Of a stretch of DNA of 64,000 bases, positions 44,733-64,000 are shown piece after piece. The stretch is from Prorocentrum cordatum (lineage: Eukaryota), in the NCBI GenBank assembly GCA_963575745.1, contig CAUYUJ010000303.1:62001-126000 (forward strand). Reading direction: 5' to 3'. The translations under genes and the position numbers were made by a program. Numbering within the stretch: position 1 is the first letter of the stretch; the number at the start of each line of letters is the position of its first letter. The notes beneath the pieces are model-generated. The model searched no databases. It was given only the letters and a program-made list of their open reading frames with translations, and was not told the origin of the DNA.

Positions 44733-44855
44733 CCTCCCACTTCGCTGTCATGACACCCGAGAGCTCGAAGTTGGAGCTCAGAAGGTTGTACGTCTCGGTG
44801 GAGCAGGTCCCAGAGCTCATGGTCAAGCCCCACAGGTCATACTCCACTGTGTCAC

Positions 44856-45066: not shown

Positions 45067-45405
45067 TGTGTAGACCAAGAAGCCCTCGTGGGGCAGGCCG
45101 GCGCCGTCTGCATGCTGTGCGGCGCTGCCAGTGCCTCCGAGGAGGCCGGGTCGGCCCCTGCCCCGCTTCCAGCCTCCTGCCGCCGTGGCAGCCGAGGAGG
45201 CCGGCGAGGCCGGCGGCGGCGGCAGTGCAAGCAGCGTTGGGGGGGGGCCTCCTCCTCCACCCCCTCCTCGGCGCCCACCAACTCCGAAATCCCCTCGCCT
45301 GTCTCCTCCTCAGCCTCTCCCCTCCCTGCTGCTGCTTCCTCGGCGCCTTCCTCCTCCTCCTCACTCTGTCCTCCTCCTCTGTCTCCTTCCTGCTGCGCCG
45401 GCGCC

Positions 45406-46518: not shown

Positions 46519-46722
46519 CGCGCAGCAGCCGCCAGAGCCCGGCTAGCAGCACCAGGCAGGCGCCAGGCAACCTTCGGAGGGGCCGCCGAGCGCGCGCGCC
46601 CATCAGGGCGCCGGAGGTGGGGCGGCCAGGCCGGCTGCTTGGCGCTTGGGAAAGCAGCGATAGCGATGCGCAGCACATGCCCGCAGGGTTGGCCAATTGC
46701 GACCGCAAGATTGACAGCGGTA

Positions 46723-46787
46723 ATCCGAAAGAACTGCTTTGAACAACGCCAGTCGTTCAAAGCAGTCCCCCGGCACTGCGTTGAACG
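46723..46787 (+). repeat. Left terminus: 9-bp TIR plus three alternating GTTCAAAGCAGT motifs
   Basis: actgctttgaac 46733-46744, gttcaaagcagt 46755-46766, actgcgttgaac 46775-46786. Confidence 0.9.
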
Positions 46788-47536
46788 ATGCGGAAATGCG
46801 ATCAGCAGGAGCCTTCGCCTGTTCCTTCTCCTCTTCTCGTCGCTGTATCCTCTTCCTTGTCCTCCCTCCTCCCCCGTTCCCTCTCTACCTCGTTCTCTCC
46901 GTCTCATGCGCACTCTTCCCCCCCCTCTCCTCCTCCTCTTCCTGCTTCTCCTCCTCGTCCTCCTCCTCCTCTGCCTCCTCCTCCTCATTTGTCCTATTTC
47001 TCCGTCCTCGTCCTCCTAATTATCCCCCTCCCCCTTCTCCCTCTCCTCCTTCTCCTCCTCCTCGTCCTCTCCTCGTCCTCCTCCTCCTCCTCCCCTTCTT
47101 CCTCCTCCTCCTCCTCCCCCTTTTCCTCTCCCTCCTCCTCCTCCTCCGCCTCCTCCTCCCCCTTCCCCCTCTTCCTCCTGTGCTATCACTCCTCTATAAT
47201 TCCAATCCACTCCTCCCCTTCACTGATCCTCCTCTTCGTCGCCATCATCCCTTTCGTCCTCCTTCGCACGCCTCTTAATCCTCAACCGGTTTCCAATCTT
47301 CTCGACTTTCTTGTCATCCGCGTCCTTGGCTCTTGAAGGGGCCCCAGGATTTCTCAGTGCTCTTGTTTGGCGCGCGAAGACACGCCTCCCAGGAACGCAT
47401 CGCCCCCCTCATCTCCACCCTCCTCCTCCTCATCATCCTCCTCCATGCATGTTCGGCTCAAGCCCGCGCCGACGGCGGGTTCCACGGCGGTTGGGCGGGC
47501 TCGCGCCCGCCTGCGCGGCCTGCAGTCGGGGCAGAG

Positions 47537-48729
47537 ATGCGCGCAGGGTGGGGTGACAAAACGGAAGAGGAAACACGGGCCGCAGTTGCGGATTCTTCAC
47601 AGAGCAGCGGTGGCGGTTGGGGAACAAGTGAGGATTGGGGCGGCCGCAGTGGCGGATGCGGTGGCGGAGGTGACCGCAGTGGCGGCTGGGGCGGCGGAGC
47701 TTCTCTTGGCGGATGGGGGGGAAAAGCGCAGGAGGGCGGCGACGGAAGTGACCGCAGTCGCGGATGGGAGGGCGGCGGATGGGAGCGCGGCGGCGGATGG
47801 GGCGGCAACGGATGGGAGGGTTCGGGAATGGAGGGCGCCCGCTGGTGGGACGACGAGGGTGGCTGCTGGAATGCATGGGAAAGGGGCCGCTCGAGTGCTT
47901 GCAGTGCTTGGGATGGTTCTCCTGCCGCGGGGCCCGCGGCCGCAACAGCGGCGGGCAAAGGAGGCCGTCCCCTACTTCCCCCAGAACGCGAAGGGCAAGG
48001 CGCAGTTGCGCTTTCTCAAACTGTGGGCCAGGAGCCAGGGCCTATTTTCAGGTTGGACTTCTTCGAGAACTTTAGGGCGGACTGGTCTGGGAATTATAAG
48101 CAGCACAACGCGGTCTTGAAGTTTTTCCGAGACGAGTTCGAAGACAGAGAAACCCGTTCGGCAGCCGCACGCCCGTCTTCGGAGGTACCGCAGTTGCGGA
48201 GGAAATTTCGAAGATCCTTAAGTACCGCGCAAAGGGGAAGGCGCAGGACAACAGGGATTGGGACTGGGACCACACTGTCAAAATTCCGTGGTCTTGGCTG
48301 GAGATGGTCGCGCAGATGGATGGACCTACAATGTTGCGCGTCGTGCGCGGCCCTGACAATGAGCGCAGTCGCGGGTTGGTCCGCTGCAAATGCAGCCCGT
48401 GCCCTAACAGTCTCGACAACATGAGGCACGCGAAATGGGTGGACAGAGGACAGGCGCAAACAATCTCTCTGCCCCAGTGGGATTTCGTCCTCATCCGCGA
48501 CGACGGCTTGGGCATTCGCGTCCACCCATCCTGCTCTAGCCCGAAGTTCAACACGTATGAGGTGGAGCCGCACTGGCACCCCGTGCGCGGCCCGACGGCA
48601 GGTCTTGGCAAGAGCGATGGCCACGGAACGTTCAAGTTCTGGAAGATGCTGCACGCCCATGCGAATCCTGGGCGGTTCGATGCGAACAAGGGGTCGCACT
48701 TGCAACCGCGGTGGCCCGCGCAGCCTTGA
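47537..48729 (+). CDS. Cargo gene A: Gly/Trp-rich N-terminus plus an orphan domain (one frameshift near 48200)
   Basis: NYKQHNAVLKFFR, then in a shifted frame PWSWLEMVAQ...WDFVLIRDDG..RVHP. Confidence 0.6.
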
Positions 48730-49431
48730 CACCGCAGTTGCGGAATTCAGCCGCAGTGGGCGCAGCCGTGGAACCGCAGTTGCGGGGACCGATCGCGCGA
48801 CGCCGCGCTCGTCGGACTCACTATGCGCGCTTTCGGCCGCAGTTGCGGCGCTGCCTTCTAGCGACTTCATATAGCTTGGCAGCAGTTGCTGCGCCCCCAC
48901 GACTGACCGCTGCAATTAGGCGCTTCGGGCGCGCATCACCTCCGTTGAAGCACTCGTGACGTTAGCGCGGCCGCAGTTGCGGAGACAGGCAAAAAGATGG
49001 ATCCGCAGGTGTTCGTCGTCCTCGTCGCCCCTTCCCCGCCGTCCTCGTCGCAGCCCCCCCCTCCGCCTTTCCTCCTCGTCGCAGTAGGCGTAGCCCGCCT
49101 CCGTCATTAGCCCTTGCTTCCGTTGGCCGCAATTAGCCCGCCTCCGTTGGCCGAGTCATTTCCCGTCGTCCTCGTCGCTGTCCCCTCCGACGGCCGCAGT
49201 TGCGGACTTTCTCGATTCCTCCTCCTCCGTTTCTGCCCCGTCACCCTCGTCGCAGTCCCCTTCCTCCTTTCATCCTCGTCTGAGCTCTTCGCGGCATCCT
49301 CTTCCTTCTCGTCCTCTCCATCCTCCTCTTCCCCCTCCTCGTCCTCATCCCCGCCGTCCCCCTCGTTGTCCTTCCTCGCCCAAGCCGGCCGCAGTTCCCC
49401 CGTCGGACGGGGGCCGCGCGCGGCCACGCCC

Positions 49432-51255
49432 ATGGACGTCGCGCCGAAAGCCGAGCTCGACCAGCGGTTCGCCGAGCTGAAGCGGCAACTGCGAGAGAAG
49501 TTCGGCGTGACAGGGGCTGCCGCGCAGCCCGCAGTCGCGGCCCCTGAGGGAGACCGCAGTTGCGGAAGCCACGAGCCTGCGCCGCGCGAGGCCCCCCCTT
49601 CGTCGGAGGGCTCGCCGCATAGCTCCCCGCGGGGCTATCGGCCGCCGCCGCCGATCAGCACGCAGTCGATCGAGCCGTCTGGTACTGGGAGCCGTGAAGA
49701 GGCGCAGTTGCGCAGACCGCCAATGGCTCCCAAGGCAAAATGGCGGGCTCGGGCGCCGACGCCGACGAAGGAGCAGGACCAACCAGCAGTGACGCGAGCC
49801 GCCGCCGAGACCGCAGTTGCGGGGGTGGCCGGCGAGCCAGGTGCCGTGCGCGGCGCCGCTGCGAGCAGCGCGCCCTCGGCCGCGCTTCCCCCAGCCGAGT
49901 CCAAACGAGGCGTCCAACCCGAAGACGAGGCCGCCTCCCAGGAGAAAGCCGCCGAGACAGTCGCCTCGGCCGAGTCGCGTCCGAGGAAAAGGCCGCCTCC
50001 CACGGAAGGCTCGCCGCTGTCAGAACCGCAGTCGCGGGATCGCGCGGGATCGCTGTCAGAACCGCAGTTGCGGGAAGATGCGGGAGCACCGCGGAAGAAG
50101 CCGCGGACCAGGAGCCCCCCAGGGATAGACTATGTTGGGGAACCCACCAAGTGGAACGAAGGATCCCTTCGCACAGCAGGTGGCCATCGGGTGCCGTCCA
50201 CCATCGCTTTGGTGTTCAACGTGGTGATCATTTCGAAGGCGGCAACAGAGAAAAGTGTCTTCAATTGCATCCTGCACCAAACTGCGGCGGTCATCTTCGT
50301 TCTATGGGACCCCGAGATGCTCCGCACGGGGAACGTCGAAGGCGCTTCCTCCTTGAGGCATGCCGTCGAAGACGCTTGCAACGTGAAGAACAACAGCGAG
50401 GAGCCTTACTGGACGACGGTTGACCTGTTCAAAGACACAGGCCTGGTGCTCGTGCGCCCGCACATCATCGCAGAGACCGCAGTTGCGGGTCATGTTGTTG
50501 GGGCCACCCACGCCGTCACGATCCTCCGCTTTCGCCTGAAGGCATCCGAAATGAATCCTGACGCGGTGATCCCTTTTGCCGTCGTGTCCAGACACGCTGT
50601 TTGCGAACCTCTCCAACAGAAGATTACGCAATCAGAACAAGCAGCGTGGCAGGCAGGTTTCTTCAAGGACGCTTTAGCTTCCATCCACAAACACCATGTC
50701 CGGTTCTTGTGCGGCTTCTTTGACATCCCGCCTGAGCAGTTTCAAGCATTTGGCCGCAGTTGCGGAGCCAGCTACAACTGCCCGATAGGGGTAGTGTTCA
50801 GGGCCGGGCCCGCCCTGTTCGGAGGCTTCAGGAAAGGCACCCGCGTCGTGCATCCCAATCACGTCGCCCCCATTGGCCCGTGCGACGTGCGCATTGCGGA
50901 CTACAACGCGGATTCTGCAGGGAGGCCGCCGAAGAACGATCCCCAGTGGCTCCCTGAGTGGCTCCATCGAACAAGCGACTCCATCATCTCTCGGCGATGG
51001 GTGCAAACGAAGGACATGCTCAAATGGGATTATGACCCTAACCGTAGTAGCGGAGTCAGAGGACAGCGCGGCTTGGCAGCGCTGCCACCCATCGGCAAGG
51101 TCATTCAGAAGGAGCTCAACGAGACGACCTTCGCCACACACTGGTACGAGGGCCTCCACCAAAACCTCGTCTTCGTCGGGCACGGACGCGCGAGTCGGGC
51201 GAGCAAGCGGAGGCATGAAGAGGCGCGATCTGCCGCAGTTGCGGACAAGCCGTGA
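49432..51255 (+). CDS. Cargo gene B: disordered N-terminus plus a probably inactive EEP-like domain
   Basis: Open ~607-aa frame from MDVAPK; HVRFLCGFFD and GLHQNLVFV parallel the NVKVCMGDFN and GAHFPLVAF motifs of gene F. Confidence 0.65.
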   Translation: MDVAPKAELDQRFAELKRQLREKFGVTGAAAQPAVAAPEGDRSCGSHEPAPREAPPSSEGSPHSSPRGYRPPPPISTQSIEPSGTGSREEAQLRRPPMAPKAKWRARAPTPTKEQDQPAVTRAAAETAVAGVAGEPGAVRGAAASSAPSAALPPAESKRGVQPEDEAASQEKAAETVASAESRPRKRPPPTEGSPLSEPQSRDRAGSLSEPQLREDAGAPRKKPRTRSPPGIDYVGEPTKWNEGSLRTAGGHRVPSTIALVFNVVIISKAATEKSVFNCILHQTAAVIFVLWDPEMLRTGNVEGASSLRHAVEDACNVKNNSEEPYWTTVDLFKDTGLVLVRPHIIAETAVAGHVVGATHAVTILRFRLKASEMNPDAVIPFAVVSRHAVCEPLQQKITQSEQAAWQAGFFKDALASIHKHHVRFLCGFFDIPPEQFQAFGRSCGASYNCPIGVVFRAGPALFGGFRKGTRVVHPNHVAPIGPCDVRIADYNADSAGRPPKNDPQWLPEWLHRTSDSIISRRWVQTKDMLKWDYDPNRSSGVRGQRGLAALPPIGKVIQKELNETTFATHWYEGLHQNLVFVGHGRASRASKRRHEEARSAAVADKP

Positions 51256-51454
51256 GTGCGCCAAGACCGATGAGCCGCAGTTGCGGCACAGAGCTCAGTA
51301 ATTACTACTGCGCGCCTGCTGCCTGCAGTTGCGGGGTAGGAGACCCCTCCTTAGCGAATAAGTGCCGGTTGCCGCGTAGGATAGCCCGCAGTTGCGGGGT
51401 AGGAGAGCACGCGGTTGCGAACTCGCAGTTCGCAATAAGTGCGCGCGCTGGGTC

Positions 51455-51650
51455 ATCGTCATCGTCGTCGTCCGACGTCGTCGTCGTCGTCGCTGCCGTC
51501 GTCAGCATCGGCAGCATCATCATTGGAATCATAATCATCATCATCGTCATCATCATCATCATCATCAGCAACAGCAGCATCAACATCGTCATCGTCATCA
51601 TCATCATCATCATAATCATCATCGTCGTCGTCGGTCGTCGTCGTCGTCCG
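51455..51650. repeat. (TCA/TCG)n microsatellite inside the transposon
   Basis: Direct reading of the sequence. Confidence 0.9.
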
Positions 51651-51938
51651 TTCGAGCTTCGAGGTTGCGGCAGTTGATGCTGGGAAGGGCTCCCTTCCCC
51701 TCCTCGTCCTCCACCAGGCCGCATCCCCCCGCCTTCTCCCTCCTAGCTCTCCTTCCCCTTCCCCTCCTATTCCTCCTCCAGCCTGCCCCCTCCCTCCTCC
51801 AGCCTGCTCCCTCCGAAGCTCTGTTCCGAGATTTTGATTTAAAAGTTGGCCTTCCGTAGTCCGCAGGCACTTCGGCTCAGCAGGTCGTTGGGCTCCTGAG
51901 CGACGGACGTCGTGCCATAGTCCGCAATAGCGGGTGCA

Positions 51939-54364
51939 ATGAGCGACGCCGTCGGTACAGGTAATGCCGCAGTGGCGGACGCGAAAGCCGCAGTGGCGGA
52001 CAAGACAGCCGCAGTTCCAGACGCCACGCAAGGGATCTTTCAGAGGGCCAACGCCTTGAGGTCTCGATTCAGGAGAGGGGGCAAGGTGCGCCTCCCTGTG
52101 CTCATGCTCGCCCCGCACACGGGCAACCGAGGCGGGCACTACCCTCAGCAGGAAAGGGTTCGGGAACTCGCTGTCAAAATCTTCCTGGCTGGATTCACGC
52201 AAGCCGAAGCTGACCACGAAGGTGTCTGCGTTCAGATGTACCCAGCAGAAGAGCTGGCGCTGAAAAAAAGCAGGACCCGACTTTCCAGACGCACACAGAG
52301 TACAATCGGGAAAAAGCGACCGGGCACCTCGCTGCGTGCTTCGACCGCAGTTGCGGAGCTGACGTTGCGTACGGGACCTGTTCGCACTCCCACTTGTGCC
52401 TCGTGTTGCGGGCAATCGCCCTGGGAGCCAAGTGGCCCATCCCCCAGGGCATGGAGTTCACGGAGGACGAGCGCGCGAGGCTGCAGCGCGTGCTCGATAA
52501 GGACGGCAATCTCGACATGGCCGCAGTGGCGGCACATGACCCTGTCGCTAAGAACCTCGTGCAGGGGGGTATGCTCATGGAAGTGCTGAGCTGGAAACCC
52601 ATGGACGAGGAACCCACTGGTGCTTCGCTCATCAGCCAGTCCCTCAATAAAGGGGCCGATTTCGCGTTGCGAACGACTGAACTCACCGCGCTCCGTGTCC
52701 TGTGCAAGGCTGTTGACGCTGAGCTGCACGCCGCAGTTGCGGACCAGGTTGCCTTTGACAAGGTCAAGCTCTCCGTCACGCACGAACTCGATCGAGTCGT
52801 TCAGGACCCAGACTTCATTGAGCTGTTCTCGTTCGTTGTTGGGCTCGGGAGTACAAACGCGCAGTTCATCCCCTTGCTGCTCCAGTTCTGCGAGGTCTAC
52901 GTGAACTCCAAGAGAAGGGCCCTTCGGCTCGGGGCCTTCGGGGTAGCCAGCCAGCTTCCCGACGAAGTGCCGTGGGTCAAGATTGCCGTGCTGATGCGAT
53001 GCTACAGGAACGCACCTGCGAGGAAGAGGGGCGTTGACACTCCTGCGTGGTGCCCTGATCCAGAACAATCGTGGAAGGCGAAGGAGTTCCGAGACCTCCT
53101 CATCGACATTAACTCGGCTCTCCGTTTGTACTTGTTCACGCTGAGCAAGGTCATCGACGGCATGGGCCCCGAGAAGGCGATCGAGTTCAAGGCGAACCTG
53201 TGCATACTGACCGCGGACGGCTTCATGCAGTACCTGAAGGATATCACCGTCAAGGAACGAAGTATCCCAGGACATCGTCAGGCGCTCCTCCGCGCTTGCG
53301 CGGAGGCCACGGGGAAGGTGGGGCCGAAGTCCAATCGGGACGCCCTTGAGAAGGCCCTCGGCGAAGTGGCAGTCGGAGGCGGGATGCCCAATTTTTTCGA
53401 TTTCAACGCGTTGCCGCGCCCAGGACCAAATGAGGCCGCAGTGGCGGGGAAGACAAAGGGTTCCGCAGAGGGGCAGGAGTTGATGCCGAGGGTCATTTCC
53501 TTTGACCCCACGACGCAACTACCAACGAACCACCAGCACAGCAGGAACACGACGGCCATTCCACGCGGATCCTTCCCTTTGCCAATCGCCGAATGGAGGC
53601 GTTCAGCGGCAGCGAAGGAGCTGGGGCGGGAGCCTGCTTTGGTCAGCGCAGTGTTGCTATGCCTTTGGGCGCGCCACAGGTCCGCAGTTGCGGAAGCGCA
53701 AGTAGAGGTGTTGCAAGACGCTGATACAAACAAACGCACCGTCAAGGCAACCGCTGCAAACGACGCACAATGCATCGAGTTGTGGCCGTGCGTCCCAAAG
53801 GCATCCAGGGTACACACCGCAAGCATGCACCCCGAGAGGGTGGCCGTGCGAGTCTGGGCGAAAGGAGATCTAAATGGAGACACGCCCACGACCTTCTACT
53901 TGCACCCCGAGTTCAAGCCGCCTGCGGACAAGACGCCCGCCGACGTGGCTGACCACGATGTGCGGTTGAGAACATGGAAGTGGGATGCGCAAGAGACAAT
54001 GCACGTCTTCTGGGCAGTCAACAGAGTCACGGAACAGGAGGTCCATCAGAGAAACAGCCGTGCTGAAAGCGCAGTTGCGCGCATCAACATGGAGCTCGAG
54101 GAGAAAGAGTTGGCGGTGTGCGTGCCTGGGGCAGGCGGGCTCGTGCTCGCCGTGAATGTTCCTGTGCTGGTGAATACGACGGCCGTGGAGCAAGGAGAAG
54201 AGCCCCTGTGGGAGGCGAGACCCAAAGCCGCACCGAAGAAGAAGGCTGCAGAGGAGACGTGGAAGACGGACGCGGCCAAGAGGGCCAAAGGGAAGCCTTC
54301 GGGCCAGCCCGCCCCGAAGAAATCGAAGAAAGGGTTCGACGAATGCGGGGGGATGTCGCTCTAA
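51939..54364 (+). CDS. Cargo gene C, ~800 aa, possible ParB/Srx-like N-terminal domain (frameshift in an A7 run at 52263-52269)
   Basis: LAPHTGNRGG...VRELAVKIFLAGF...YGTCSHSHLCLVLRA, then the 656-aa frame; basic C-terminus PAPKKSKK. Confidence 0.65.
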
Positions 54365-54950
54365 GAAGCCGCAGTGGCGGCAGTCAGGGCGGCTTGCTCG
54401 CGTGACCGCAATTGCGGGCAACAGGCCGGAGGGGAGGGCGCAGGCGTGACCGTTGTGGCGGGGCGGTCCTGTAGTTTGCAGCATCGCTGCTTCTGTTAGG
54501 TGTCGCCGCAGTAGCGGATCGCTGACGCCGCAGTAGCGGATCGCAAAAAGAACTCCTCCCTCCCTCCTCCCTCTCCTCCCTCGCCCCTCCTCCACTTCCT
54601 CCCTCTCTCTTCCTCCTTTCCCTCCCTCCTCCCAAGTTCGAAGCCGACGCTACTCATTCCCTCACTCCCTCCCTCCCTCCCGTCGATGTTCTCCGCATCC
54701 TGCTGCGGCCATCCTGGTGCCGACTCCCCCTCTTGCCAGTTCCCGCGCCGTGTGCACGGGGCCTCCTCGGCAGCTCAGTGCCGGGGCACTGCTTTGAAGC
54801 ATTCTGCGAGCGGGGCCCTCGAGGGCCTCGCGGGGATCGCAGGGGCCGAGGGATTCATTCGTCTCGCCATTTGGCCCAACCGCGCGCGGCCCCACTGCCC
54901 GCGCCACCGCCTTGCCCGCAGTTGCGGCTGTGCTCAACGCAGTAGCAAAC

Positions 54951-55952
54951 ATGCCGACTTCGAGCGAATGGACCCCTGCGTGCGTGGAGAAGGTCTTGTG
55001 CATCCGTGGAGGTTGGCTTGCGCAGACCACCCCCATCCCCGAAAAAGGATATCAAGGTGCCCCACGCAGGGCCCCTCGGAGAGATAAGCTCCGTGCACGT
55101 GAACATGCAAAAGCCTTGGTTGCTCAAGGTGCGCGCGAAAGGTAAACCGACCGCAGGCGCCTTGAAGGCGTCCAAGGCCTGGGACGCGCTGAAGAAAGAG
55201 CTCGCGAAGCAGGGCGGCGCCGCAGCTGCGGACGACGAGAGCGACGGCGACGCGGGGGACGAAGCAGATGATCCCATGTCGGCCCTGGTCAGCTCCTCCA
55301 GCGACGCGAAGAAGCTGGCCGCGACCCCGAGCAGGAAGCAGAAGACTGGAACGCGTTCGGCGAGTGCTGGCTTGCTGAGGGGAGAGGCCGCGGAGTCGGC
55401 CACTGCCACTGTGCACTCCGCACAGATGCCCGCCAAGAGCCGCTTGAAGTATCCTGGCGACAAGGCCATTCGACACGTGCGGGTGGCCAGCTTCAAGCGG
55501 AGGAAGTTGTGGCTCGACGCTGCAGTCCTTGGGTGGCTGATCGAGATGATCGTGGGCGACGTGAGCCTCGGCGGTGTCCCCGACATCGACGACGGCGACA
55601 AGGACGAGGCCACAGTGGCGGACAAAGAATGGGCAACGGCGGTTGACCCTGAAACCCCGCTGGCGAAGCACAGGGAGCTCGGCCCCCCCCCCCCCCCATG
55701 GCACAGGGGAGCGGGTCTGGCTCCACCGTCGCCTGGGACTTCAAGGGCGCTTGGGTCGCGACGATCACGCGAGAGTGTGCCAACAAAGGCAAAGCGATCG
55801 AGATGGATGTGAAGAAATTTACCAAGAAGGAGTGGCAGTCGGCGCAGTCGTCGAAGGGCTATGACTACGAGTGGGAGGGCATGACGCAGCAACAGCGCAA
55901 GCAAGCGGCTCTGGATTACCTCGAGCTCCAAGTCCCCAGTCTGTTCGACTGA
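54951..55952 (+). CDS. Cargo gene D, orphan of ~330 aa (frameshifts near 55040 and in the C-run at 55683-55697)
   Basis: MPTSSEWTP..CIRGGWL, then KLWLDAAVLGWLIEMI, then WDFKGAWVATI..RKQAALDYLE. Confidence 0.55.
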
Positions 55953-56393
55953 GGCCCGAAGCCGCGTGGCCCGCAGTTGCGGTGGGGCCACTGAGTGCCC
56001 GCAGTTGCGGGGCGGCTGGGCGCGAGCGGAAACGCGGAGGGCGAGGCGGTGTGAGGAGGCAGGCGGAAGGCGAAGGGGCGCCGTCGCGTTTTTGTCTAGG
56101 GTGTTCCGCGGGTGCACGCCTAAGTTCGCCAACTTGCGCGGGCGAGCGTGTTTCTTAGAGAAGCATTGAGTGAAGCATCGAGACCTTGTGCGCGCGATGA
56201 TTGGGGCTTCCGCGCGGGCGTACTTCAGCAGTAATTAGCTCCTCCCTCCCCCCCTCCTTCTTCGCCCCTCCGCATCGTCTGCAGTTGCTCCTCCCTCCTC
56301 TCCTCCCTCTTCCTAGTTCTGTATCCCGCAGCCGCGTGCCCCGCCCGAGTCGTTCGCCACGCGACCGCGCATGGGTGTTCCCGTGGGGCGGAC

Positions 56394-59300
56394 ATGGTAT
56401 GGCGAGGAGGACGGAACGCATTTCGAGGTGGAGTGGCCCCTTACGACAGCGGCCGCGCACCGAGGAAAACGAGGTATGGCACCACTGGGCTCGCCAACAT
56501 ATTGAGCCGCAGTAGCGGCGATGCTTGCCCCAAGAAGATAAAGGTGCACGCATGTGCGGACTTTCTGTGTCTAGCGAAGTGGCCCGTGTCGCAGTACGGC
56601 TTTGCAGAGCCGCCTCGCTTTCGTTCGCGGCCGTCTGCTTGGCGACCGGGGGCGCCGCCACCACCCGCAGTTGCGGTTCCCGCGGCGCCAGCAGAAGCTC
56701 CAGGCGGCACCGCAGTTGCGGCCCCCTCGGCTCCTGCACACATACCAGCAGCAGCACCAGCAATTCCCGCAGCCCCTGCGCAAGAAGCACAGGCAGCTCC
56801 TGCACCAGGAGCACCCGCAGCACCAAAACCTCCAGCAGCCCCTGCGCCCGAAGCACCCGCAGCAGCAGTCCCTCCAGCTCCTCCAGCTCAAGTGCACGCA
56901 GCACCAGAACCGCCTGCTGCGCACGAGTCCGCAATTTGGGTTGAAGCTCCTGAGGGAGTGGAAGCGGACAAAGACACACCATTTCCAGCGCGCTTGCCAC
57001 CAGCGCGCCCGCTGCCAGAGAACTGGTCGAAGACGCAGGTCGCATTCTTCCCGCGCCCACTCCCAGAGGCAGCAGCACGAGTTGCGGCGCCTATTGGCGA
57101 CGCCTTGCGGCCACGAGTCGCGACGCCACCCCTGGCGCCAGAGAAAGGTGCACCTGTGGAAGACGCGCCAAAGATCCAGGCCGCAGTGGCGGCGACGGTG
57201 CCTGACCGCGCGATGGCTCTCCTGAGGCAGATTATGTCGGCGAGTTCCTACATTTGGCATTCAGCTTTCATGCTGTTTGCTTTGCGGTTCGGGCGTCGAC
57301 CTTACGCGTGGGAAGGCGAGAACCGCAAGGACCTCCTTGACTGCTACATGCCTTGGGCAAAGGAGAAGTGCACTGAGCCATGCGCCGTCGACGGCGTGGC
57401 GCGCGTAGTCGCCGCTGCTGAGGATCTGTTCGAGGAATGGACAACGGTGGAGCTCAGGCCCGTGACTCCCGAGAACCCTCTCCATGAGGTGCGCCACTGG
57501 GTGGCCGCAGTTGCGGTGGGTGGCGCGTGCTCTGAGGGGGCGGACGCGTTGAACAAGTTCTACGGTCCTCTGGGACAATGGATCCTAGGGACTGTTTGCG
57601 ATGGAAGTTGCGGCATTGACCTTGTGGCGATGATGTTGCAGAAGCCGCAAAATGCCGAGACGCGCAAATGGCTTCGGGAGGAACTGTACGATTTCGGGGT
57701 GCGCCGCTGGGACGAACCGTGGTTGCACGACGTGCTCGTTGTCACGCAGGAACTAACCTTGGAGGCGGCGCGGGCGCGCCGCAGTTGCGGGGCCAGCGGC
57801 CCTGCTGGATCCATCGTCCTGGACGACTTCCAGGGCGAGGGGGAACCAGCAGAGGCGCCCAGAGAGGCGAGCGCGCCACGCCCCGCTCTCATGGCGGCTT
57901 TAAAGTGGCAGACGGGCGTGGAGGACGACGGTATATTGCTGGCCATGGCTGAGGCTATGCCCGAGGCGTTGCAGGAGGAGCAGATCAGGGCGCGCGCACT
58001 GGCCAGCGCACGCCCAAAGCCCGCAGCTGCGGAAGAGAAGCGTCGCGTGTGCCCGCACATGCTCAGAGACCGCGAACTGGCTTGCAAAGACTTGGAGGCG
58101 CACGCACGCAGTTGTGGTTGGATGGGCGTGGGCGGTCTGCCACGAAATTCAATCGCGTCTTTTTGCGGGCGGTTCACGTGGCCGAAGGGCATGGGGCTCG
58201 CCCAGCAGAAGAGAACCGTCTCCAAGTGGTTTCAAAACTGGCGCAAACGGGGTGGACATGCCACGGCGAGCGCCCATGGACGACGCCGCGCGCCGGGCAC
58301 CCAAGGGCGCCCGAACAAGGCTCCATGGCTGGAAGCCGCTCTGTACGAGTTGTGGTCCCACATGAGGTACTCCGTGGACTGGAAGGCGGTGGCCAAGCGA
58401 ACCGCAGTTGCGGAGGAGAGGCCGAAGATGTTGGCCAGGTTCTCCCAATCCCTGCTGATTACGACGGCGAAGCAACTCGTCGCGGACTACTGCGTGGAGA
58501 CAATGAAGCGGGGAGGCGTACCGAAGGTGCCGCAGTTGCGGCCTCGGTGGTGGGTGAAGTGGCGGCGCTCCTACGGCCTCAGCATGAAGAAGCCGAACCG
58601 CAAGTACAGGGTGCCAAAATGGTTGCTCCAATCCCGTTTTGAGACTATGATCTTGAACGTGGCCAGGGTCCGCGCAGCTGCGGAGGAGCTTTTGGGGTAC
58701 GACCCGCACATCCTGAACTGGGACCAGTCGCCCTTTCACCACAACGAGTCTTCGTCGGCCTCCAAGCCAACATTGGCTGTGAAGGGTGGCATTGTCCCGC
58801 TTGTCGAGGCGCATGACAACAGCAGGGCTCGGTGGACAGCGAACCTGACGGTGTCGAGCGACGCGGAGGACATCCGCAGTTGCGGACCACCGCCAGCGGA
58901 GCTCATGTTCAAGGGGGGACCTGTCATCGCTGAGGTCTTGGCCGCACATGCCCGCAGTTGCGGCTATCCGTCCTGGGTGAGCACGGCGACGTCCGAGAAG
59001 GGGTCCTACCGCGCAGACGACGTTGTATCATTCTTGCAGCGGCACTTGCGGGCCTGGCCCGCCGACCCGCAGTTGCGGGGAAAGTGGCGCATCCTCATGG
59101 CCGACGACCATAGCCCGCGCAAAGCAGACGCTGTGCGGAGACTCGCCTGGCAGCGCGGCTACGTGCTGATCATTCACGGCGGGGGGGCGACCGCAGTTGC
59201 GCAGCCCGTGGACACGGACTTGAACCAGCACGTGAAGCGGCGGTACATTGCCCTCGAGACCAAATCGTTGGTGCAGCAAATGGCGTTGGGGAAGCACGTG

Positions 59301-60679
59301 CCGCAGTTGCGGCCTTCCGATTGCGCCGGCTTGATGGTGTCAGTGTTGGACAATGTGCAGTTGCACTTGGACGCCGCGAAAGGTTTCCTGAAAGTGGGAA
59401 TTCGAGCGCCCTTCGACAAGTCAGGAGATCTCGAGATTTGCCGAGAGGTGGCGGAACTCTGGGAAGCAGGGGGGCTGCGAGCAAAGTGGATGCCGCAGTC
59501 GCGGAGGTGAGGGGGGAATGCGGGCAGAAACGTTTGAAATGGTCCTACAATGACGTGCTGCGTCTCATACAGGAATACGAGAAACACGCCGCCACATATT
59601 CCGCGTTGAATAGGCTCGGCGATGAGGAGGGCGATGACGAGGGCGGGGAGGAGGAGGACGATGAGGTGCGCGAGGAGCACGAGGAGGACGAAGAGCAAGA
59701 GGATGCCTCGTGGGCCGAGGCTGTAGCGGAACAGTGCGATGCCGCAGTTGCGGCACCTGGGCCTCAAGGACCCTCGGTATCCATGGACTGCGTGGTCGAC
59801 GAAGAGGCGGCCGAGCAGGTGGCAGTGGCGACGTCCTTGGCAGAATCGCTCCGCGAGGCGGAAGATATGCTGCGCCAAGTGGGCATGGAGAAACTAGCGC
59901 AGGATTGCCAACAGCAACAACACAAACAAAAGAAGCGGTTGAGAGAGCTGGCGCGGGAGGACAACGAGATCCTACGAGCGTTGACTGCCCAGCGAGACCA
60001 CGAAGCCGCAGTGCTAGCGAAAAAGCGGCGCCTGGCGCTGGAAGCGAACGACAGGACGAAGGCGCTGCACGATCTCAAGAAACAGATTCGAGAGGCCGAA
60101 GCCGCCTTGAGGGCAAAGAAGGAGGCCGCAGTTGCGGTGGAAACGGATTTGGCTAACAAACACGCCCTGGCGCAGTGGAACCCCGAGGAGTTCAAAATCA
60201 AGAAAAACAGGATGGCAGCTCTGGACCGCCTGGCTCGCGGAAAGGGCGTCCTCTCAGACGAACAGAGGGGGGAGTGGGCATGGTTCAAGACGCATTGGGA
60301 CGAGGAGATGTGCAAGCAGCACAAGAAGCAATGGCCGTTGACGTTTGCTGGGTGGCTGCAAAAAGTCGCGAACGACGCGGCGTCTGGGAACCGTTCGGCG
60401 CTGTCGCAGTTCGTGCATTCGGAAACAGTGAGAACCCTGGGAGGGCAAATGGCGCTGGTAATCCCGGCCCTAGCGCGATGCAGGCCGCAGTTGCGGACCC
60501 ACAGGAAGTCCAGCGCGAAGCTGTTTTCCCGGGCGGCGCCCGCGCGGGCAGGAGATGAGGCAAAACCGCAGTTGCGGTCTTCCAGCTGCTGCGAAAATAA
60601 TCCTTTCTCAGTCCATTGCAATCCTCGCCCTCCTTCTGCTTCTCCGCCAGTCCCTTTGTTGTTCTTTCAGTTCCTTTGA
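56394..60679 (+). CDS. pogo-like DD35D transposase with an OTU-like region, CENP-B-type HTH and coiled-coil tail (frameshift near 59485)
   Basis: GRPNKAPWLEAALYELW and WWVKWRRSYGLS (HTH); ILNWDQSP (D at 58722), ILMADDH (D at 59103), QPVDTDLN (D at 59211); TVCDGSCG. Confidence 0.88.
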
Positions 60680-60715
60680 GTCCTCGCCCTCCTTCTGCCA
60701 CTCCTCAAACCCCCT

Positions 60716-62802
60716 TTGTCTCCTCCCTCCATCCGAGCCCATGCCCATTCACGATCCATTTCCGTAGCCACCGTGGCTCGAGGTGGCGCACGCGAAGACC
60801 CAGGCATGTGGCCGCCCGCGCGCCCGAGCGCATCCTCTGGGAGTACGGACCGTGGAATTCGATTCGCCAGAACGGTGTTCATCCACAGCGCTGAGAAGGA
60901 GAAGGGAGGCGAGGACGAGAAAGAGAAGGAGGAGGGAGGCGAGGACGAGAAAGCCGCAGTTGCGGATGATGACGACGACCAGCGGACGCAAGATGGCGAC
61001 AGCACCGTCGCGTCCTCGGCTGTCTCCGCTGACGAGGCTGAGCCGCGGGGAGGTGTGGGAGCCGCAGTTGCGGCAGCACAGGGCTCCTACATGCCGAGAG
61101 CGTTGTCGTCGCGGAGAACCTGGGTTCGGGTGCCCGTCATCCAGACAAGCAATCTGTCGGAAAACCAAAGAGCTCTTGTCGACGCATGGGAGGAGAGAAC
61201 GGGGTGCGAAGCGGGACGGGTCGGCTTCTACGTGGCCAACTTCGGAGGGACTGCAGCTAGACCCGTGCAACGCGCGGACGAGTGGGCGCAGCTCCGCGCG
61301 AACCCTGCTCAGATCATCGCCCTGTGTCAGTGCGACGACGAGACCTGCGCGGTACTCAGTGGGGAGCGCGACGCGAGGGACAGTGCAGCCGCAGTTGCGG
61401 ACGATACGTTTCGGAATCGGACTCACTACAACTACCTGTGCATTAAGGGCGGCGAGCCATCAGGGGCCCTCCTTGTTGGCATCAGGGGCCGCAGTGGCGG
61501 CCACATTGAACACGTCGGCTTTGCGAGGCTCTTCCACGAGCAGGAGAAGTCCAAAACGAAGAAGAAAAATAACAAGTCTGCAGTTGCGGATGTTCCTGCG
61601 CCAAAGTGGCACAACAAGTACTCCAGGGCGATGGTGGTGCGCGTCCACCTGGGCCAGGCCGTGCCCCATCTGGGTCCTTCAACGTCATGGCGGTGCACGT
61701 CCACCACAGCTTGGCCAACCAAGACTGGGGCGTCACGAAGCTCCATGAGTTCTACAACTGGTTCGTCGCCTACGTCAGGGATTGGAACGTGAAGGTCTGC
61801 ATGGGGGACTTCAACATGTGCATGTTCCAGCTTGCGCCCTGGTGCCGCAGTTGCGGCCTGACTGTGGACGTCGCCGCGTGGACCCCCTGGAAGACAACAG
61901 GCGGCCAGCCCAGGGCAGACAGCATGGCGATTATGTTCATAAGCTGTCCTGGGCAGTCCAAGCTTGACCATGGCCTGAGTGTTCTGCGCGACCGCGAGGG
62001 CGGGTTCTTGACGACCCAGCATGATCCGTCGTTCCGTGTCTTCGACTACACGAATGGCCTTGGGAAGATGCTTCAGACTTACGTTCCCAAGGCTGAGGCC
62101 GTAGAAGACAACATGCGCGCCTTCCTGACGCCACCTGGCGAATCCTTGGCCGCAGTTGCGGATTTCGAGGAAAGGATGGCGCGCAGGGCGCGCGAGGAGT
62201 TTGCGCCTCATCCCTTCAGGGTGAAGCAGGGCAAACTCGACGACAAGATATGGCATGGCGCCGTCGGCAGGGCGAGGCACGGAGCGCACTTCCCCCTGGT
62301 GGCTTTCACGCGCAATACGTGCCGCAGGTCACCTGAAAGACTCGCCGCGAGGATGGAAAGGCACGCACAGAAGAGGGGCAAGGGGGCCAAAGAAGACGGC
62401 AGGAAGGGCGGCAAGAAGGGCAGCTACGCACACACCGCAGTTGCGGGGAAGGGCGCCCGACCCCAGATGGAAACCGCAGTTGCGGGGAGAGACGCTGGGG
62501 CTGAGCGAGCAGAGAACACGGCACCGCCGCAAGCTGCCAACGGCGACGATGCGACCCCTTCTTATGCCGCAGTGGCGGCTGGGTCCTGGGGCGCGAGCGG
62601 CAGCGGCGCATGGGGGGCGCGCTGGTGGGACTGGCGCTCGAGCGGATGGGGTGCTGATGGCGCGCAGTGGTGGCCCTCTGATGTGGCCGCAGTTGCGGAC
62701 AATGCCCCTGAGGGCTCGCCTCCTCAGCATGAAGTCGAGTGGGGCTCGAGCGGGCGAGCGGCCGAGCGCCACCCGTGGACCTGGGAGGCGCAGCGTTGGT
62801 GA
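60716..62802 (+). CDS. Cargo gene F: endonuclease/exonuclease/phosphatase (EEP)-fold protein (frameshift near 61670; likely ATG at 60806)
   Basis: FYVANFGG, IIALCQ, VMAVHVHH, VCMGDFNM and GAHFPLVAF occur in EEP motif order. Confidence 0.7.
60761..60782 (+). other. Relic dinoflagellate spliced leader (DinoSL)
   Basis: TCCGTAGCCACCGTGGCTCGAG matches DCCGTAGCCATTTTGGCTCAAG at 18/22 positions, just upstream of the gene F ATG. Confidence 0.75.
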
Positions 62803-62912
62803 TGGCCGCAGTTGCGGGCAAGTGGAGCATGGTGTTGATAGCCGCAGTTGCGGACAGTGTACGCAGGACAAATCATCATCAACATCATCATATCATCAGC
62901 CTCTTGTGAAGA

Positions 62913-62979
62913 CGTTCAAAGCAGTGCCGGGGGACTGCTTTCGATCGCCCCCTCGAATCCTTTATAAAGGCTTTCGGAT
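62913..62979 (-). repeat. Right terminus: 29-bp subterminal inverted repeat, palindrome CCTTTATAAAGG and 9-bp TIR
   Basis: 62913-62941 is the reverse complement of 46759-46787 with one mismatch; ctttcggat at 62971-62979. Confidence 0.9.
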
Positions 62980-63983
62980 TAGGTCCATTGATTCCGTTCT
63001 CGCTCAGAAGTGCCCTTGTTCCGGTTCTGGATGGCCACGTGGAGCCACTCCCGGTATGGCATTCGAGGGCACTGCCATGGCAAGATCCGGCTGCGGGTGC
63101 CGTGGGTCGTGTGGCAGTACGGGCATGTACGAGGCGCCTTCAGTTCACTTGGCGCCGTCGGTGGGACAGTCTCGAGAAAGCTGCCGGCAGGAGGGCCCGC
63201 GGCGCCGGGGGCGGCGGTGGCGGTGGCCGCATGGCGAAGCTCCTTTCGAGAAACTCCGCGGCGCCGGCCTCCGCGGGCAGCACACTTCTCTTGATGCTTC
63301 GCCAAGTAACTCGGCGTGTATTTCTTCCCGCAGTGTTCGCACACGACCCGCTCAACATGCCGAGGCACGCTTGTGCAAGCTCGCATGTGCGTCTTCAGTC
63401 CGCGGAGCGGGTGCCAGGCGCGGCAGGTAGGGCAGAAACCTTCGCGGTCTTGGCCTGGATCTCCCCATGTCTCGGGCTCGGCCTCCAGAACATTGCGTCG
63501 TTGTTCCCAAGTGTCAGAGTTGGTCTGGCGGCGAACGTCGTCCACCACCTGGGCGCTGAGGTCTGCCCACCTGGCCCGGTCGTTGGCCAGAGGCAGCCAC
63601 CCTGTCGGGCGGTCCACTTCCGCCAAGCCAGCCTTGTCGCAAACAGCACAAATGCGAGACCACCACTGTGTAGCAATAGTCAGTTTGCGAGAGGCCCGCC
63701 CCGACTCAGGGAGAGCACTGCCCACAATACCCCGTTCGATGCGGAGTGGGTCCCGTCGTGCCCAGTGCCCAATGTAACTGAGTTGTTTTTTGACCACCAG
63801 CACTTCCACATCATCGAGGCCCAGCTTGAGACGCACATCCGTCATCGTCTCCTTGCCCTCCATGGCTCTCGTGCCTCCACGCCGAGGGGTCCACACCAGG
63901 CCCCGATAGACTCGATTCAGGAAAACCCGCATTTCCTTGAGAGAGGCGTAGGTGTGAGCACGTACCTCCGCGTTGTAGAGCAA
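62979..63983 (-). pseudogene. LINE D ORF2 C-terminal part (post-RT region plus C2HC fingers), truncated by the transposon
   Basis: The TAA stop is created by the TA plus TIR junction; fingers CPTC..HMRAC and CEHC..HQEKC. Confidence 0.8.
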
Positions 63984-64000
63984 AGAAGCAATGACTGTGG

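What the first reader, a model, noticed from the sequence alone, without database searches (positions are those of the whole stretch)
47580..62853. Element-restricted, strand-polarised 12-mer CCGCAGTTGCGG written through genes in all three frames
I counted ~45 exact copies plus ~20 variants (mostly CCGCAGTNGCGG) in 16 kb, about one per 250 bp; chance expectation for the exact 12-mer is far below one. I saw no reverse-orientation copy (CCGCAACTGCGG) and none in the other 48 kb. It is read as AVA, PQLR or RSCG depending on frame and is also intergenic, so selection acts on the nucleic acid rather than the protein. Analogues are parS, Chi/KOPS, DNA uptake sequences and HIP1. Inference: a cis-acting self-recognition mark bound by an element-encoded protein for coating, packaging, protection or directional processing.
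Basis: partly seen in the sequence, partly recalled or inferred. Interest (0 to 1): 0.93.

Follow-up and report, generated by a model that had tools for sequence, protein, structure and literature searches.

The report
Sense-strand hairpin tag of a transposon
A 16-kb multi-gene DNA transposon, probably in a dinoflagellate, carries about 60 copies of one tiny hairpin-forming 12-letter word on the sense strand only, and distant relatives of the element carry their own versions of the same word, which points to an undescribed way for a mobile element to mark itself.

Summary
There are 45 exact CCGCAGTTGCGG and 62 CCGCAGTNGCGG, all on the + strand, all at 47580-62853, with none elsewhere in the 64 kb. 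Dinucleotide shuffles expect 0.01 and 0.14; synonymous-codon shuffles expect 0.9 against 44 observed in coding DNA.

The field lies between a 29-nt inverted repeat (46759-46787 / 62913-62941). Inside are six co-oriented genes, including a transposase whose model has the Tc1/mariner (Mos1) fold.

In 80 metagenome loci encoding relatives of that transposase (31-60% identity), CCGC-RGYN-GCGG occurs 837 times on the sense strand and 9 times on the other (counts include the window element). Variants follow clades. The arms keep complementarity through compensatory changes, and the -1/+1 flank covaries.

Copies cluster just after stop codons and vanish from the spacers between genes.

Best reading (confidence 0.4): a sense-strand stem-loop that tags the element's transcripts and is read by a lineage-specific factor. 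The main rival is an oriented double-stranded DNA site array. The reader protein and the acting molecule (RNA or DNA) are untested. Seven literature searches found no description.

The parts
47580..62853 (+). Motif field: 45 exact CCGCAGTTGCGG, 62 CCGCAGTNGCGG and 6 other one-mismatch copies. The word is a 4-bp inverted repeat (CCGC/GCGG) around an asymmetric centre AGTN.
46759..46787 (.). Left arm of the candidate terminal inverted repeat. It is itself a small palindrome (GCAGT-N8-ACTGC).
   Evidence: I14: 29 nt, 97% complementary to 62913-62941
62913..62941 (.). Right arm of the candidate terminal inverted repeat, 60 nt after the last motif copy.
54771..54798 (.). Internal third copy of the terminal palindrome, in the orientation of the right arm. 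One contig in run X2 joins 54803 directly to 62914.
   Evidence: (I21), table 5
47433..48729 (+). Gene A: a Gly/Trp-rich N-terminal part and a Cys/His-containing C-terminal part. It is read in two frames here; other copies have one extra base after 48149.
   Evidence: (weak match in L062), 64 table 4
49432..51255 (+). Gene B, no family assigned. Atlas features give only a lead to endonuclease/exonuclease/phosphatase proteins (score 0.89).
51939..54364 (+). Gene C, conserved upstream of the transposase in L020, with full-length homologues P0017, P0018, P0021 and P0023. It is read in two frames here; other copies have one extra base after 52263.
   Evidence: model and fold searches inconclusive
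55006..55812 (+). Gene D, with weak relatives upstream of the transposase in L001 and L018. It lies in the longest motif-free stretch of the field (54928-55970).
56394..60679 (+). Gene T, the transposase. The core model matches Mos1, SETMAR and Sleeping Beauty. Invariant NWDQSPF, ADD and QxxDTDLN blocks are present. The frame breaks near 59482; other copies have one extra base there.
60716..62802 (+). Gene F, conserved downstream of the transposase in six loci (L008, L009, L010, L020, L021, L058). It has a large family (346 representatives at E<=0.001) and GDFN and SHFP blocks that I read as endonuclease/exonuclease/phosphatase-like. It has a Trp/Gly/Ser-rich tail. It is read in two frames here.
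46788..47579 (+). Motif-free CT-rich tract ahead of gene A. Similar motif-free tracts lie ahead of the other genes: 49206-49528, 51398-51966, 54540-54915, 56011-56506 and 60578-60953.

Best explanation
The 12-mer is the core of a small stem-loop: a 4-bp GC stem, often extended to 5-6 bp, closed by an R-G-Y-N tetraloop. This transposon family keeps it on the sense strand of all its genes, in any reading frame, and most densely in the first ~100-150 nt after stop codons.

I propose that it acts in or on the transcript, either as an RNA hairpin or as the non-template strand during transcription. It would serve as a 'self' tag read by a factor whose specificity changes with the element lineage, most simply an element-encoded protein. 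The tag would mark, protect or process the element's mRNAs, for example by defining 3' ends or shielding them from RNA silencing.

Shown: the motif's excess, polarity, palindromic covariation, clade-specific variants and position relative to stop codons and spacers. Inferred: that the acting molecule is RNA, that a protein reads it, and what follows from being read.
For: 1. Excess and polarity. The window has 62 copies on + and 0 on -. In 80 loci plus the window element (404,479 nt), asymmetric-centre copies number 837 on the transposase sense strand and 9 on the other. Of those 9, 7 are AGCC/GGCT-type centres that fit the search pattern on both strands, so only 2 are truly reversed.

2. Orientation is not a coding effect. 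In the PQLR frame the reversed word would encode the same peptide, yet all 7 PQLR copies in the window use the forward word. The shuffle expectation for the reverse word is 0.07.

3. All conserved genes are co-oriented with the motif.

4. Position. In 50 loci, the first 150 nt after the transposase stop hold 49 copies (6.5 per kb). The next 150 nt hold 1 copy in 39 loci (0.17 per kb). In 9 of 32 loci the first copy starts within 6 nt of the stop. In the window, copies start 2-6 nt after the stops of genes A, C and F. The CT-rich tracts ahead of each gene are motif-free.

5. Pairing.
- Compensated stems are found on + only or nearly so: CCAC..GTGG 20 on + and 0 on -, ACGC..GCGT 11 and 0, TCGC..GCGA 11 and 2, GCGC..GCGC 9 and 2.
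- The window has GCGC..GCGC three times and CAGC..GCTG once among 12 two-mismatch copies.
- The -1/+1 flank is Watson-Crick in 276 of 650 copies, against 188.8 expected within loci (z = 9.2; 0 of 2000 shuffles reach it). All four pair types are enriched.

6. Variants follow the transposase tree: an AGTC clade, a nested bulged TGTN clade, and a clade with GGTG, GGCA and CCAC..GTGG.

7. The predicted RNA stem forms with mean probability 0.50 in its real context and 0.435 with shuffled flanks (n = 254, p = 0.012).
Against: - No RNA evidence was obtained. No RNA run holds the stretch.
- G-T and T-G pairs are not enriched at the covarying flank (ratios 0.74 and 0.92). RNA helices usually tolerate them.
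- Among single stem changes, transitions giving wobble pairs number 126 and transitions giving mismatches number 64. Most of that excess comes from position 1, and CpG decay confounds positions 2, 3, 10 and 11.
- In the window alone, the real context does not favour the stem (0.41 against 0.448, n = 64).
- A 4-bp stem is weak: -5.0 kcal/mol as RNA and -2.8 as DNA.
- Perfect palindromic arms also fit a dimeric double-stranded-DNA binder.
- The conservation test is mixed. Motif positions differ half as often as others in 80-90% identical pairs (57 of 668 against 4693 of 26761). They differ more often in closer pairs (30 of 276 against 619 of 9775; 22 of 720 against 394 of 23657).
- No RNA-binding domain was found in any element protein.
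Confidence: 0.4

Rival explanations
1. Oriented double-stranded DNA sites. The word would be a binding site for an element-encoded DNA-binding protein, such as the helix-turn-helix part of the transposase, or protein A or C. That protein would occupy the element's DNA along its length to mark, compact, protect or direct it during transposition or replication. parS/ParB, CENP-B boxes and KOPS are the analogies.
For: The arms are perfectly palindromic. Flank covariation is Watson-Crick only, with no G-T excess. Variants follow the transposase tree. The transposase has a Mos1-like fold with an N-terminal helical part. The field ends 60 nt before the right terminal repeat.
Against: A symmetric dimer would not enforce one orientation of the 4-nt centre, yet the ratio is 837 to 9. 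All copies point the same way instead of being inverted at the two ends, as transposase sites are. Copies are depleted about 15-fold in the spacers and piled up just after stop codons, which a DNA coat does not predict. No ParB-like or other DNA-binding family was found in A, B, C, D or F.
Confidence: 0.25
2. Co-transcriptional signal on the non-template DNA strand. The small hairpin would be exposed in the transcription bubble and would recruit or pause an elongation, anti-silencing or 3'-end factor, as the ops element recruits RfaH in bacteria.
For: It explains the sense-strand polarity and co-orientation with all genes, the Watson-Crick-only covariation expected of a DNA hairpin, and the clusters after stop codons. 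From recall only, the GGTA variant of L034 overlaps most of the ops core.
Against: ops elements occur once or twice in 5' leaders, not about 4 per kb through coding sequence. No NusG/Spt5-like protein was detected in the element. The DNA stem is predicted at only -2.8 kcal/mol.
Confidence: 0.1
3. Target or shield for base modification. The word would place one thymine (position 7) and up to three CpGs in a fixed context, either to attract or to escape the 5-hydroxymethyluracil and 5-methylcytosine marks that dinoflagellates put on transposons.
For: In passages I read of a preprint on Amphidinium carterae (10.1101/2023.11.30.569493), 5hmU peaks share a TG-rich GTTG-type motif, lie mostly in repeats, and their loss activates transposons. 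The window's variant contains GTTG. The word has up to three CpGs, and the AGTC-to-AGTT difference is a CpG transition.
Against: Variants without GTTG (AGTC, GGTG, AGCA) are the majority. Modification does not explain the palindromic arms or the strict strand choice, because the opposite strand also carries a T and the same CpGs. No modification data were available.
Confidence: 0.1
4. Mutational by-product without function. Template-switch correction of quasi-palindromes, short-patch copying between copies, or slippage would spread and perfect the word.
For: Whole 12-nt indels occur between close relatives. L024 has a 15-nt-period tandem array of the word. Only perfect Watson-Crick arms are favoured. 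Motif positions differ more often than other positions in pairs above 90% identity.
Against: The same core persists at 31-60% transposase identity in 70 of 81 sources with three or more copies. Most copies in coding DNA arose by substitution that keeps the frame. Polarity, placement after stops and avoidance of spacers are not expected from a blind process. Motif positions differ half as often as others at 80-90% identity.
Confidence: 0.07

Closest known systems
DNA uptake sequences (DUS of Neisseria, USS of Haemophilus)
   Same: A 9-12-nt word far above chance, written through genes in several frames and shaping peptides, that serves as a mark of 'own' nucleic acid.
   Different: Those are bacterial, genome-wide, about 1 per kb and found in both orientations, and are read on incoming DNA by a pilus-associated receptor (recalled). 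This one is confined to one eukaryotic transposon family, occurs at about 4 per kb, uses one strand only, and changes with the element lineage.
Chi and KOPS polar oligomers
   Same: Strict strand polarity of a short word along kilobases, suggesting a reader that moves in one direction.
   Different: Their polarity follows replication arms and they are read by RecBCD or FtsK in bacteria (recalled). Here the polarity follows gene orientation inside a mobile element, the word is a palindrome with an asymmetric centre, and no translocase was found.
Dispersed packaging signals of single-stranded RNA viruses
   Same: Many weak stem-loops with a shared loop motif, spread through coding RNA.
   Different: Those work with a coat protein on a genomic RNA (recalled). 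This element has a DDE/D transposase, no detected capsid gene, and no known RNA intermediate.
AGNN tetraloop hairpins recognised by yeast RNase III (Rnt1p)
   Same: The loop begins with A/G then G, and the last two bases are freer. AGTT, AGTC, AGTG and AGTA account for 682 of 846 copies.
   Different: Rnt1p substrates need a long double-stranded stem (recalled). Here the stem has 4-6 bp. No RNase III or dsRBD was found in the element.
ops element and RfaH
   Same: A sense-strand (non-template) 12-nt signal that forms a tiny hairpin and recruits a factor during transcription.
   Different: ops is a single copy in a leader, and it is bacterial (recalled). No NusG-like gene was found here.
Transposase-binding repeats and CENP-B boxes (pogo-derived CENP-B)
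   Same: A Tc1/mariner/pogo-type protein lineage associated with a short repeated DNA word.
   Different: Transposase sites sit in the terminal or subterminal repeats in inverted orientation, and CENP-B boxes sit in satellite DNA (recalled). Here the copies fill the whole interior, including coding sequence, in one orientation.
Mimivirus 'hairpin rule' for transcript 3' ends
   Same: Palindromes placed just downstream of stop codons.
   Different: Those palindromes are not conserved in sequence and are not found inside coding regions (recalled).

Membership tests
IS630/Tc1/mariner (including pogo) DDE/D transposases - gene T | RNase H-like catalytic fold of the Tc1/mariner type | tested here: met
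   The core model (pLDDT 83.2, pTM 0.76) matches Mos1 at E 1e-5 with probability 1.00. SETMAR/Metnase and Sleeping Beauty follow, then retroviral integrases (13 matches at E<=0.001).
IS630/Tc1/mariner (including pogo) DDE/D transposases - gene T | Three conserved acidic residues with family-typical spacing | tested here: inconclusive
   D147, D274 and D310 are invariant in 42 sequences, spaced 36 residues between the second and third. I did not check that they superpose on the Mos1 catalytic residues.
IS630/Tc1/mariner (including pogo) DDE/D transposases - gene T | Recognised by the Pfam DDE_1 or DDE_3 models | tested here: not met
   The best hit is DDE_1 at E 0.063 and 13.3 bits, against a cut-off of 22, in 1 of 9 members. 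Atlas features point to DDE_1 clusters at only 0.82-0.85.
IS630/Tc1/mariner (including pogo) DDE/D transposases - gene T | Terminal inverted repeats and a TA target-site duplication | tested here: inconclusive
   A 29-nt inverted repeat brackets the field. No duplication could be assigned, the ends were not found in relatives, and no second copy with flanks is held.
parS/ParB-type partition or coating system | A ParB-fold protein encoded by the element | tested here: inconclusive
   My reading of a ParB-like block in the N-terminus of protein C got no support. Pfam gave nothing and a PDB profile search gave nothing. Foldseek's best matches were E 0.16-0.3, and VIA-align gave no such row. The model was poor (pLDDT 56.2).
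parS/ParB-type partition or coating system | A symmetric palindromic site, orientation-free, in a few clustered copies | tested here: not met
   The centre is asymmetric and used in one orientation (837 to 9). The window has 62 dispersed copies.
Uptake-signal-type genome words (DUS/USS) | Genome-wide over-representation in the host chromosome | tested here: not met
   There are no copies in the other ~48 kb of the window. The whole genome is not held.
AGNN-tetraloop RNase III substrates | A/uGNN tetraloop | tested here: met
   The centre is AGNN in 714 of 846 copies and GGNN in 132.
AGNN-tetraloop RNase III substrates | A long double-stranded stem below the loop (recalled: about 14 bp or more) | tested here: not met
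   Complementarity ends after 5-6 bp. At offset 3 it is 167 observed against 174 expected.
Dispersed RNA packaging signals | A capsid or coat gene and a genomic RNA | tested here: inconclusive
   No capsid family was found by Pfam in any ORF. Four proteins remain without a fold. No RNA data are available.

The most novel reading that the evidence does not exclude
A family of large multi-gene Tc1/mariner-like transposons of dinoflagellates carries an element-encoded, lineage-specific hairpin-recognition system. Every mRNA of the element would be bar-coded with a small RGYN stem-loop at about 4 per kb, and a co-evolving element protein would read this code to tell its own transcripts from host RNA. 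That would let the element escape RNA silencing or organise its expression; the Trp/Gly-rich, Argonaute-hook-like tails of proteins A and F would fit such a role. This would be the first 'self' tag known to be written through the coding sequence of a eukaryotic mobile element.
Probability: 0.25. Interest if true: 0.95.

Novelty: categorically new. Interest (0 to 1): 0.88.

Why it matters
Short words kept by selection on the nucleic acid itself (uptake sequences, Chi, KOPS) are classics of bacterial genetics. As far as I know and could find, there is no counterpart in a eukaryotic mobile element.

Here one word is kept on one strand at about 4 per kb, through proteins in all three frames, across transposase lineages only 31-60% identical. 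Its loop and stem change with the lineage while pairing is preserved. That is the signature of a recognition system co-evolving with its element.

If this is right, it opens several directly testable questions:
- How large transposons are expressed and escape silencing in dinoflagellates, whose gene regulation and chromatin are unusual.
- Whether a protein reads a 12-nt hairpin with programmable loop specificity.
- How much protein sequence can be bent by selection on the nucleic acid.

The word is also a practical marker for finding this abundant but unannotated family in plankton metagenomes.

Tried and rejected
- Chance or codon bias: rejected.
- Part of a longer repeat unit: rejected. The flanks of the 45 copies are unrelated.
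- Prokaryotic or viral origin of the window: rejected. There are no tRNA or Rfam hits and there are LINE-type RT, RNase H and zf-RVT ORFs. The transposase has no relative in viral contigs: 65 pattern stretches, none confirmed.
- Paired copies of the word in viral contigs. Of 46 loci, 43 have fewer than 4 copies and 3 have only local tandem arrays.
- Whole-genome mapping: not possible.
- RNA evidence: no RNA holder is listed. The one run guessed to be RNA laid only 2 contigs, on low-complexity parts.
- G-U wobble test: inconclusive.
- Divergence test at motif positions: mixed results, and the HSPs are not independent.
- Context-folding test: small effect overall and none in the window.
- Protein C as a ParB-like or SET-like protein. 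Pfam and the PDB profile gave nothing. The model was poor. Foldseek had nothing at E<=0.001. VIA-align gave SET/PR-domain rows at only Z 5.3-6.1, among helical-bundle noise at Z about 7.
- Protein F and its homologues: no Pfam family in 8 of 8 scanned.
- B as a paralogue of F, and A as related to the N-terminus of T: not significant by BLASTP.
- Terminal palindrome in relatives: not found in any locus.
- Literature. The two 12-mers occur only in two unrelated primer contexts. Six other searches (and passages of PMC10666404) found no description of the motif or of this element family.
Full report
**1.

- CCGCAGTTGCGG occurs 45 times, always on the + strand, between 47580 and 62853. 100 dinucleotide shuffles give a mean of 0.01.
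- With position 8 free there are 62 copies: T 45, G 10, C 4, A 3. All are on +, and shuffles give a mean of 0.14.
- A mismatch scan finds 23 one-mismatch copies on +, all inside 46759-62941. The other ~48 kb holds no exact or one-mismatch copy.
- The flanks of the 45 exact copies are unrelated, so this is a free-standing word and not part of a longer repeat.
- Of the 62 copies, 27 are read as AVA, 9 as RSCG-type, 8 as PQLR-type, and 18 lie between ORFs.
500 shuffles of synonymous codons within each gene give 0.89 copies (maximum 5) against 44 observed in 12,267 coding nt.
- In the PQLR frame the reversed word would encode the same peptide, yet only the forward word is used.

**2. What surrounds it**

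The window looks eukaryotic.
- It has no tRNA or Rfam hits.
- It has CT-rich low-complexity tracts.
- LINE-type ORFs with RT, zf-RVT and RNase H hits lie on the - strand at 36.5-46.7 kb.
- No genome is held for the window.

The field is bracketed by a 29-nt inverted repeat, 46759-46787 against 62913-62941, which is 97% complementary. A third copy lies at 54771-54798.

Inside are six co-oriented genes, which I call A, B, C, D, T and F.

Gene T is a transposase.
- It has 16 homologues in the protein collection.
- Its core model (pLDDT 83.2) matches Mos1 at E 1e-5, followed by SETMAR, Sleeping Beauty and then retroviral integrases.
- Pfam does not recognise it: DDE_1 at E 0.063 is the best hit.

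The gene order C-D-T-F, always on one strand, recurs in relatives.

The closest named sequences are two Prorocentrum cordatum gene models that embed a fragment 59% and 94% identical to protein C by the tool's figures, near-identical by my reading of the sequences. That genome is reported at 59.7% G+C with unidirectional genes (passages of PMC10666404). A dinoflagellate host is therefore likely, but not shown.

Contigs at least 85% alike cover all 30 bins of the element in three of four public runs: 1151, 15922 and 194 contigs were laid. Those copies carry one to four extra bases after 48149, 52263, 59482 and 61674. These are exactly the places where genes A, C, T and F change frame in the window. 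The window copy is therefore either decayed or carries assembly indels.

**3. The word is a hallmark of the whole family**

A scan of metagenome contigs with the transposase alignment returned 80 loci at 31-60% identity.

- In those loci, CCGCAGTNGCGG occurs 620 times on the transposase sense strand and once on the other.
- The most frequent 10-mers of the individual loci show lineage-specific versions. The centres seen are AGTT, AGTC, AGTG, AGTA, GGTG, GGTA, AGCA and GGCA. There is also a bulged form, YCAGC-TGTN-GCGR, and a compensated form, CCAC-GAAC-GTGG.
- Over the 80 loci plus the window element (404,479 nt), CCGC-RGYN-GCGG occurs 846 times on + and 18 times on -. With asymmetric centres the counts are 837 and 9. 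Seven of the 9 fit the pattern on both strands, leaving 2 truly reversed copies.
- 70 of 81 sources have three or more copies.

I built a quick maximum-likelihood tree of the transposase core. It has 78 rows; L058, L064 and L067 were left out because their matches were shorter than 250 residues. The tree places the variants in clades:
- a 28-row clade, with support 100, that is almost purely AGTC and contains a nested 4-row clade with the bulged form;
- an 11-row clade, with support 100, with GGTG, GGCA and CCAC..GTGG;
- the remaining rows, which mix AGTT, AGTC, AGTG and AGTA.

**4. Anatomy of the word**

It is a 4-bp inverted repeat around an asymmetric 4-nt centre.

- Pairing is maintained by compensatory change. 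CCAC..GTGG occurs 20 times on + and 0 on -. ACGC..GCGT occurs 11 and 0 times, TCGC..GCGA 11 and 2, and GCGC..GCGC 9 and 2.
- In the window, 4 of 12 two-mismatch copies are compensated.
- The next pair outward covaries. It is Watson-Crick in 276 of 650 distinct copies against 188.8 expected within loci (z = 9.2). The effect is weaker at offset 2 (212 against 191.3) and gone at offset 3.
- All four Watson-Crick pair types are enriched, by 1.4- to 2.2-fold. G-T and T-G are not.

The evidence therefore shows base-pair symmetry, but not the wobble tolerance typical of RNA.
- The single-substitution wobble test is confounded by CpG decay.
- Predicted stability is modest: -5.0 kcal/mol as RNA and -2.8 as DNA.
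- The real context raises the stem probability only slightly, 0.50 against 0.435 (p = 0.012), and not at all in the window alone.

**5. Where the copies sit**

- In 50 loci, the 150 nt after the transposase stop codon hold 49 copies (6.5 per kb). The next 150 nt hold 1 copy in 39 loci (0.17 per kb). Density recovers in the next gene.
- In 9 of 32 loci with enough sequence, the first copy begins within 6 nt of the stop. This includes lineages with the bulged and the GGTG forms.
- In the window, copies begin 2-6 nt after the stops of A, C and F.
- The CT-rich tracts ahead of each gene carry none.
- TAATTA boxes recur in the spacers. Motif density is 5.6 per kb between the stop and the first box and 0.81 per kb after it.

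The layout is thus: coding sequence with copies, stop codon, one to three copies, AT box and low-complexity spacer without copies, then the next gene. This pattern follows transcription units, not the DNA as a whole.

**6. How copies arise and persist**

- In alignment A1, motif peptides replace other residues without gaps. Examples are RTAVAEE against RTPDREQ, and HARSCGY against HARSRGY. Most copies are therefore made by substitution.
- Close relatives also differ by whole 12-nt indels and by loop switches.
- L024 has a 15-nt-period tandem array of the word.
- Motif positions differ half as often as other positions in 80-90% identical pairs, but 1.7-1.8 times more often in closer pairs. I regard this test as inconclusive.

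**7. Mechanism**

Any explanation has to cover five facts together: sense-strand polarity, co-orientation with all genes, placement after stops, avoidance of spacers, and lineage-specific variants with preserved pairing.

My best reading is a stem-loop tag acting on the transcript or during transcription, read by a factor that co-evolves with the element (confidence 0.4). The downstream effect is inferred. It could be 3'-end definition, protection from RNA silencing, or ribonucleoprotein assembly.

The rivals are:
- an oriented double-stranded-DNA site array (0.25), favoured by the Watson-Crick-only covariation but not by the distribution;
- a non-template-strand hairpin signal (0.1);
- a base-modification context (0.1), led by the TG-rich 5hmU motif reported on dinoflagellate transposons (passages of 10.1101/2023.11.30.569493);
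- a functionless mutational by-product (0.07).

No reader protein could be named.
- A, B, C, D and F have no Pfam family.
- The model of C was poor, and its fold matches are weak.

**8. Comparison and novelty**

The nearest known things are listed below. Apart from the loop and stem figures, their properties are recalled, not tested here.
- Bacterial uptake sequences are also written through genes, but they are genome-wide and used in both orientations.
- Chi and KOPS are also polar, but their polarity follows replication.
- Dispersed RNA packaging signals have the same architecture, but need a coat protein and an RNA genome.
- AGNN tetraloops have the same loop rule, but need long stems. Here the loop rule is met and the stem length is not.
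- ops/RfaH is a sense-strand mini-hairpin, but occurs as a single copy.
- Transposase sites and CENP-B boxes are terminal or lie in satellite DNA.

None of these matches in full. Seven literature searches found no description of the word or of this multi-gene element family. Supplements of those papers were not read.

I rate the motif system as categorically new. The element itself is a new, very divergent member of the Tc1/mariner/pogo fold class.

Noticed in passing
window 36565-46708 (- strand) and 62979-63998 (- strand): LINE-type retrotransposon ORFs flank the element on both sides. They give weak RVT_1 and zf-RVT hits and an RNase H hit at E 3e-6. The right-hand piece reads like the region just after an RT domain.
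   Followed up: partly
window 47600-47880 (gene A), 62560-62700 (gene F tail); P0030, P0031, P0035: There are Gly/Trp- and Ser/Trp-rich tracts (GGWGG, SWG, WxxW) in protein A and in the C-terminal tail of protein F. The tail is conserved in three distant F homologues. From recall, they resemble the GW/WG 'Argonaute hook' motifs of silencing factors and viral suppressors.
   Followed up: no
loci L002, L005, L010, L016, L017, L019, L040, L044, L063 and others; window 47017, 51299, 56232: AT-rich palindromic TAATTA boxes stand out in the GC-rich spacers, at a median of 86 nt after the transposase stop in 19 of 32 loci. They may be 3'-end or promoter signals of the element.
   Followed up: partly
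L024 6471-7236: A tandem array of the motif with a 15-nt period (about 40 copies of CCGCAGTCGCGGAAC-like units) lies at the end of one metagenome contig.
   Followed up: no
window 48149, 52263, 59482, 61674: Other copies in runs X1 and X6 carry 1-4 extra bases at the points where genes A, C, T and F change frame in the window. The window copy is therefore either decayed or carries assembly indels.
   Followed up: partly
window 54803 joined to 62914 (run X2): One contig joins the internal palindrome to the right terminal palindrome, skipping 8110 nt. This could be a deletion derivative, or a sign that the 16 kb consists of two units that each end in this palindrome. Support is one contig with 28 nt on one side.
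   Followed up: no
window 57650-57750 (gene T, N-terminal half); alignment A1 columns 570-600: A conserved GTVxDGDCGID block lies ahead of the transposase core. From recall, it resembles the catalytic Cys motif of OTU-type cysteine proteases. No tool confirmed this.
   Followed up: no
P0017 residues 590-765 (protein C; window about 53700-54250): The beta-rich C-terminal part of protein C aligns with SET/PR methyltransferase domains (SET8, PRDM11, PRDM4, Set1) at Z 5.3-6.1 and Foldseek probability 0.6-0.7. This is below what I would trust, given a model with pLDDT 56.
   Followed up: partly
P0025, P0026 (named Prorocentrum cordatum by their source): Two annotated host gene models, a thioredoxin-domain protein and a casein kinase I, embed a near-identical fragment of about 35 residues of element protein C. 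Pieces of this element have probably been drawn into gene predictions.
   Followed up: no
window 54928-55970: Gene D lies in the longest stretch of the field without a polar copy (1043 nt). It holds only a self-complementary variant, CCGCAGCTGCGG, at 55220.
   Followed up: no
L089/L098 and L093 (viral contigs): Local tandem arrays of CCGCAGTSGCGG or CCGCAGTAGCGG (9-15 copies within a few hundred bases) occur in two viral-contig records that have no transposase relative. They are probably unrelated repeat-peptide genes.
   Followed up: partly
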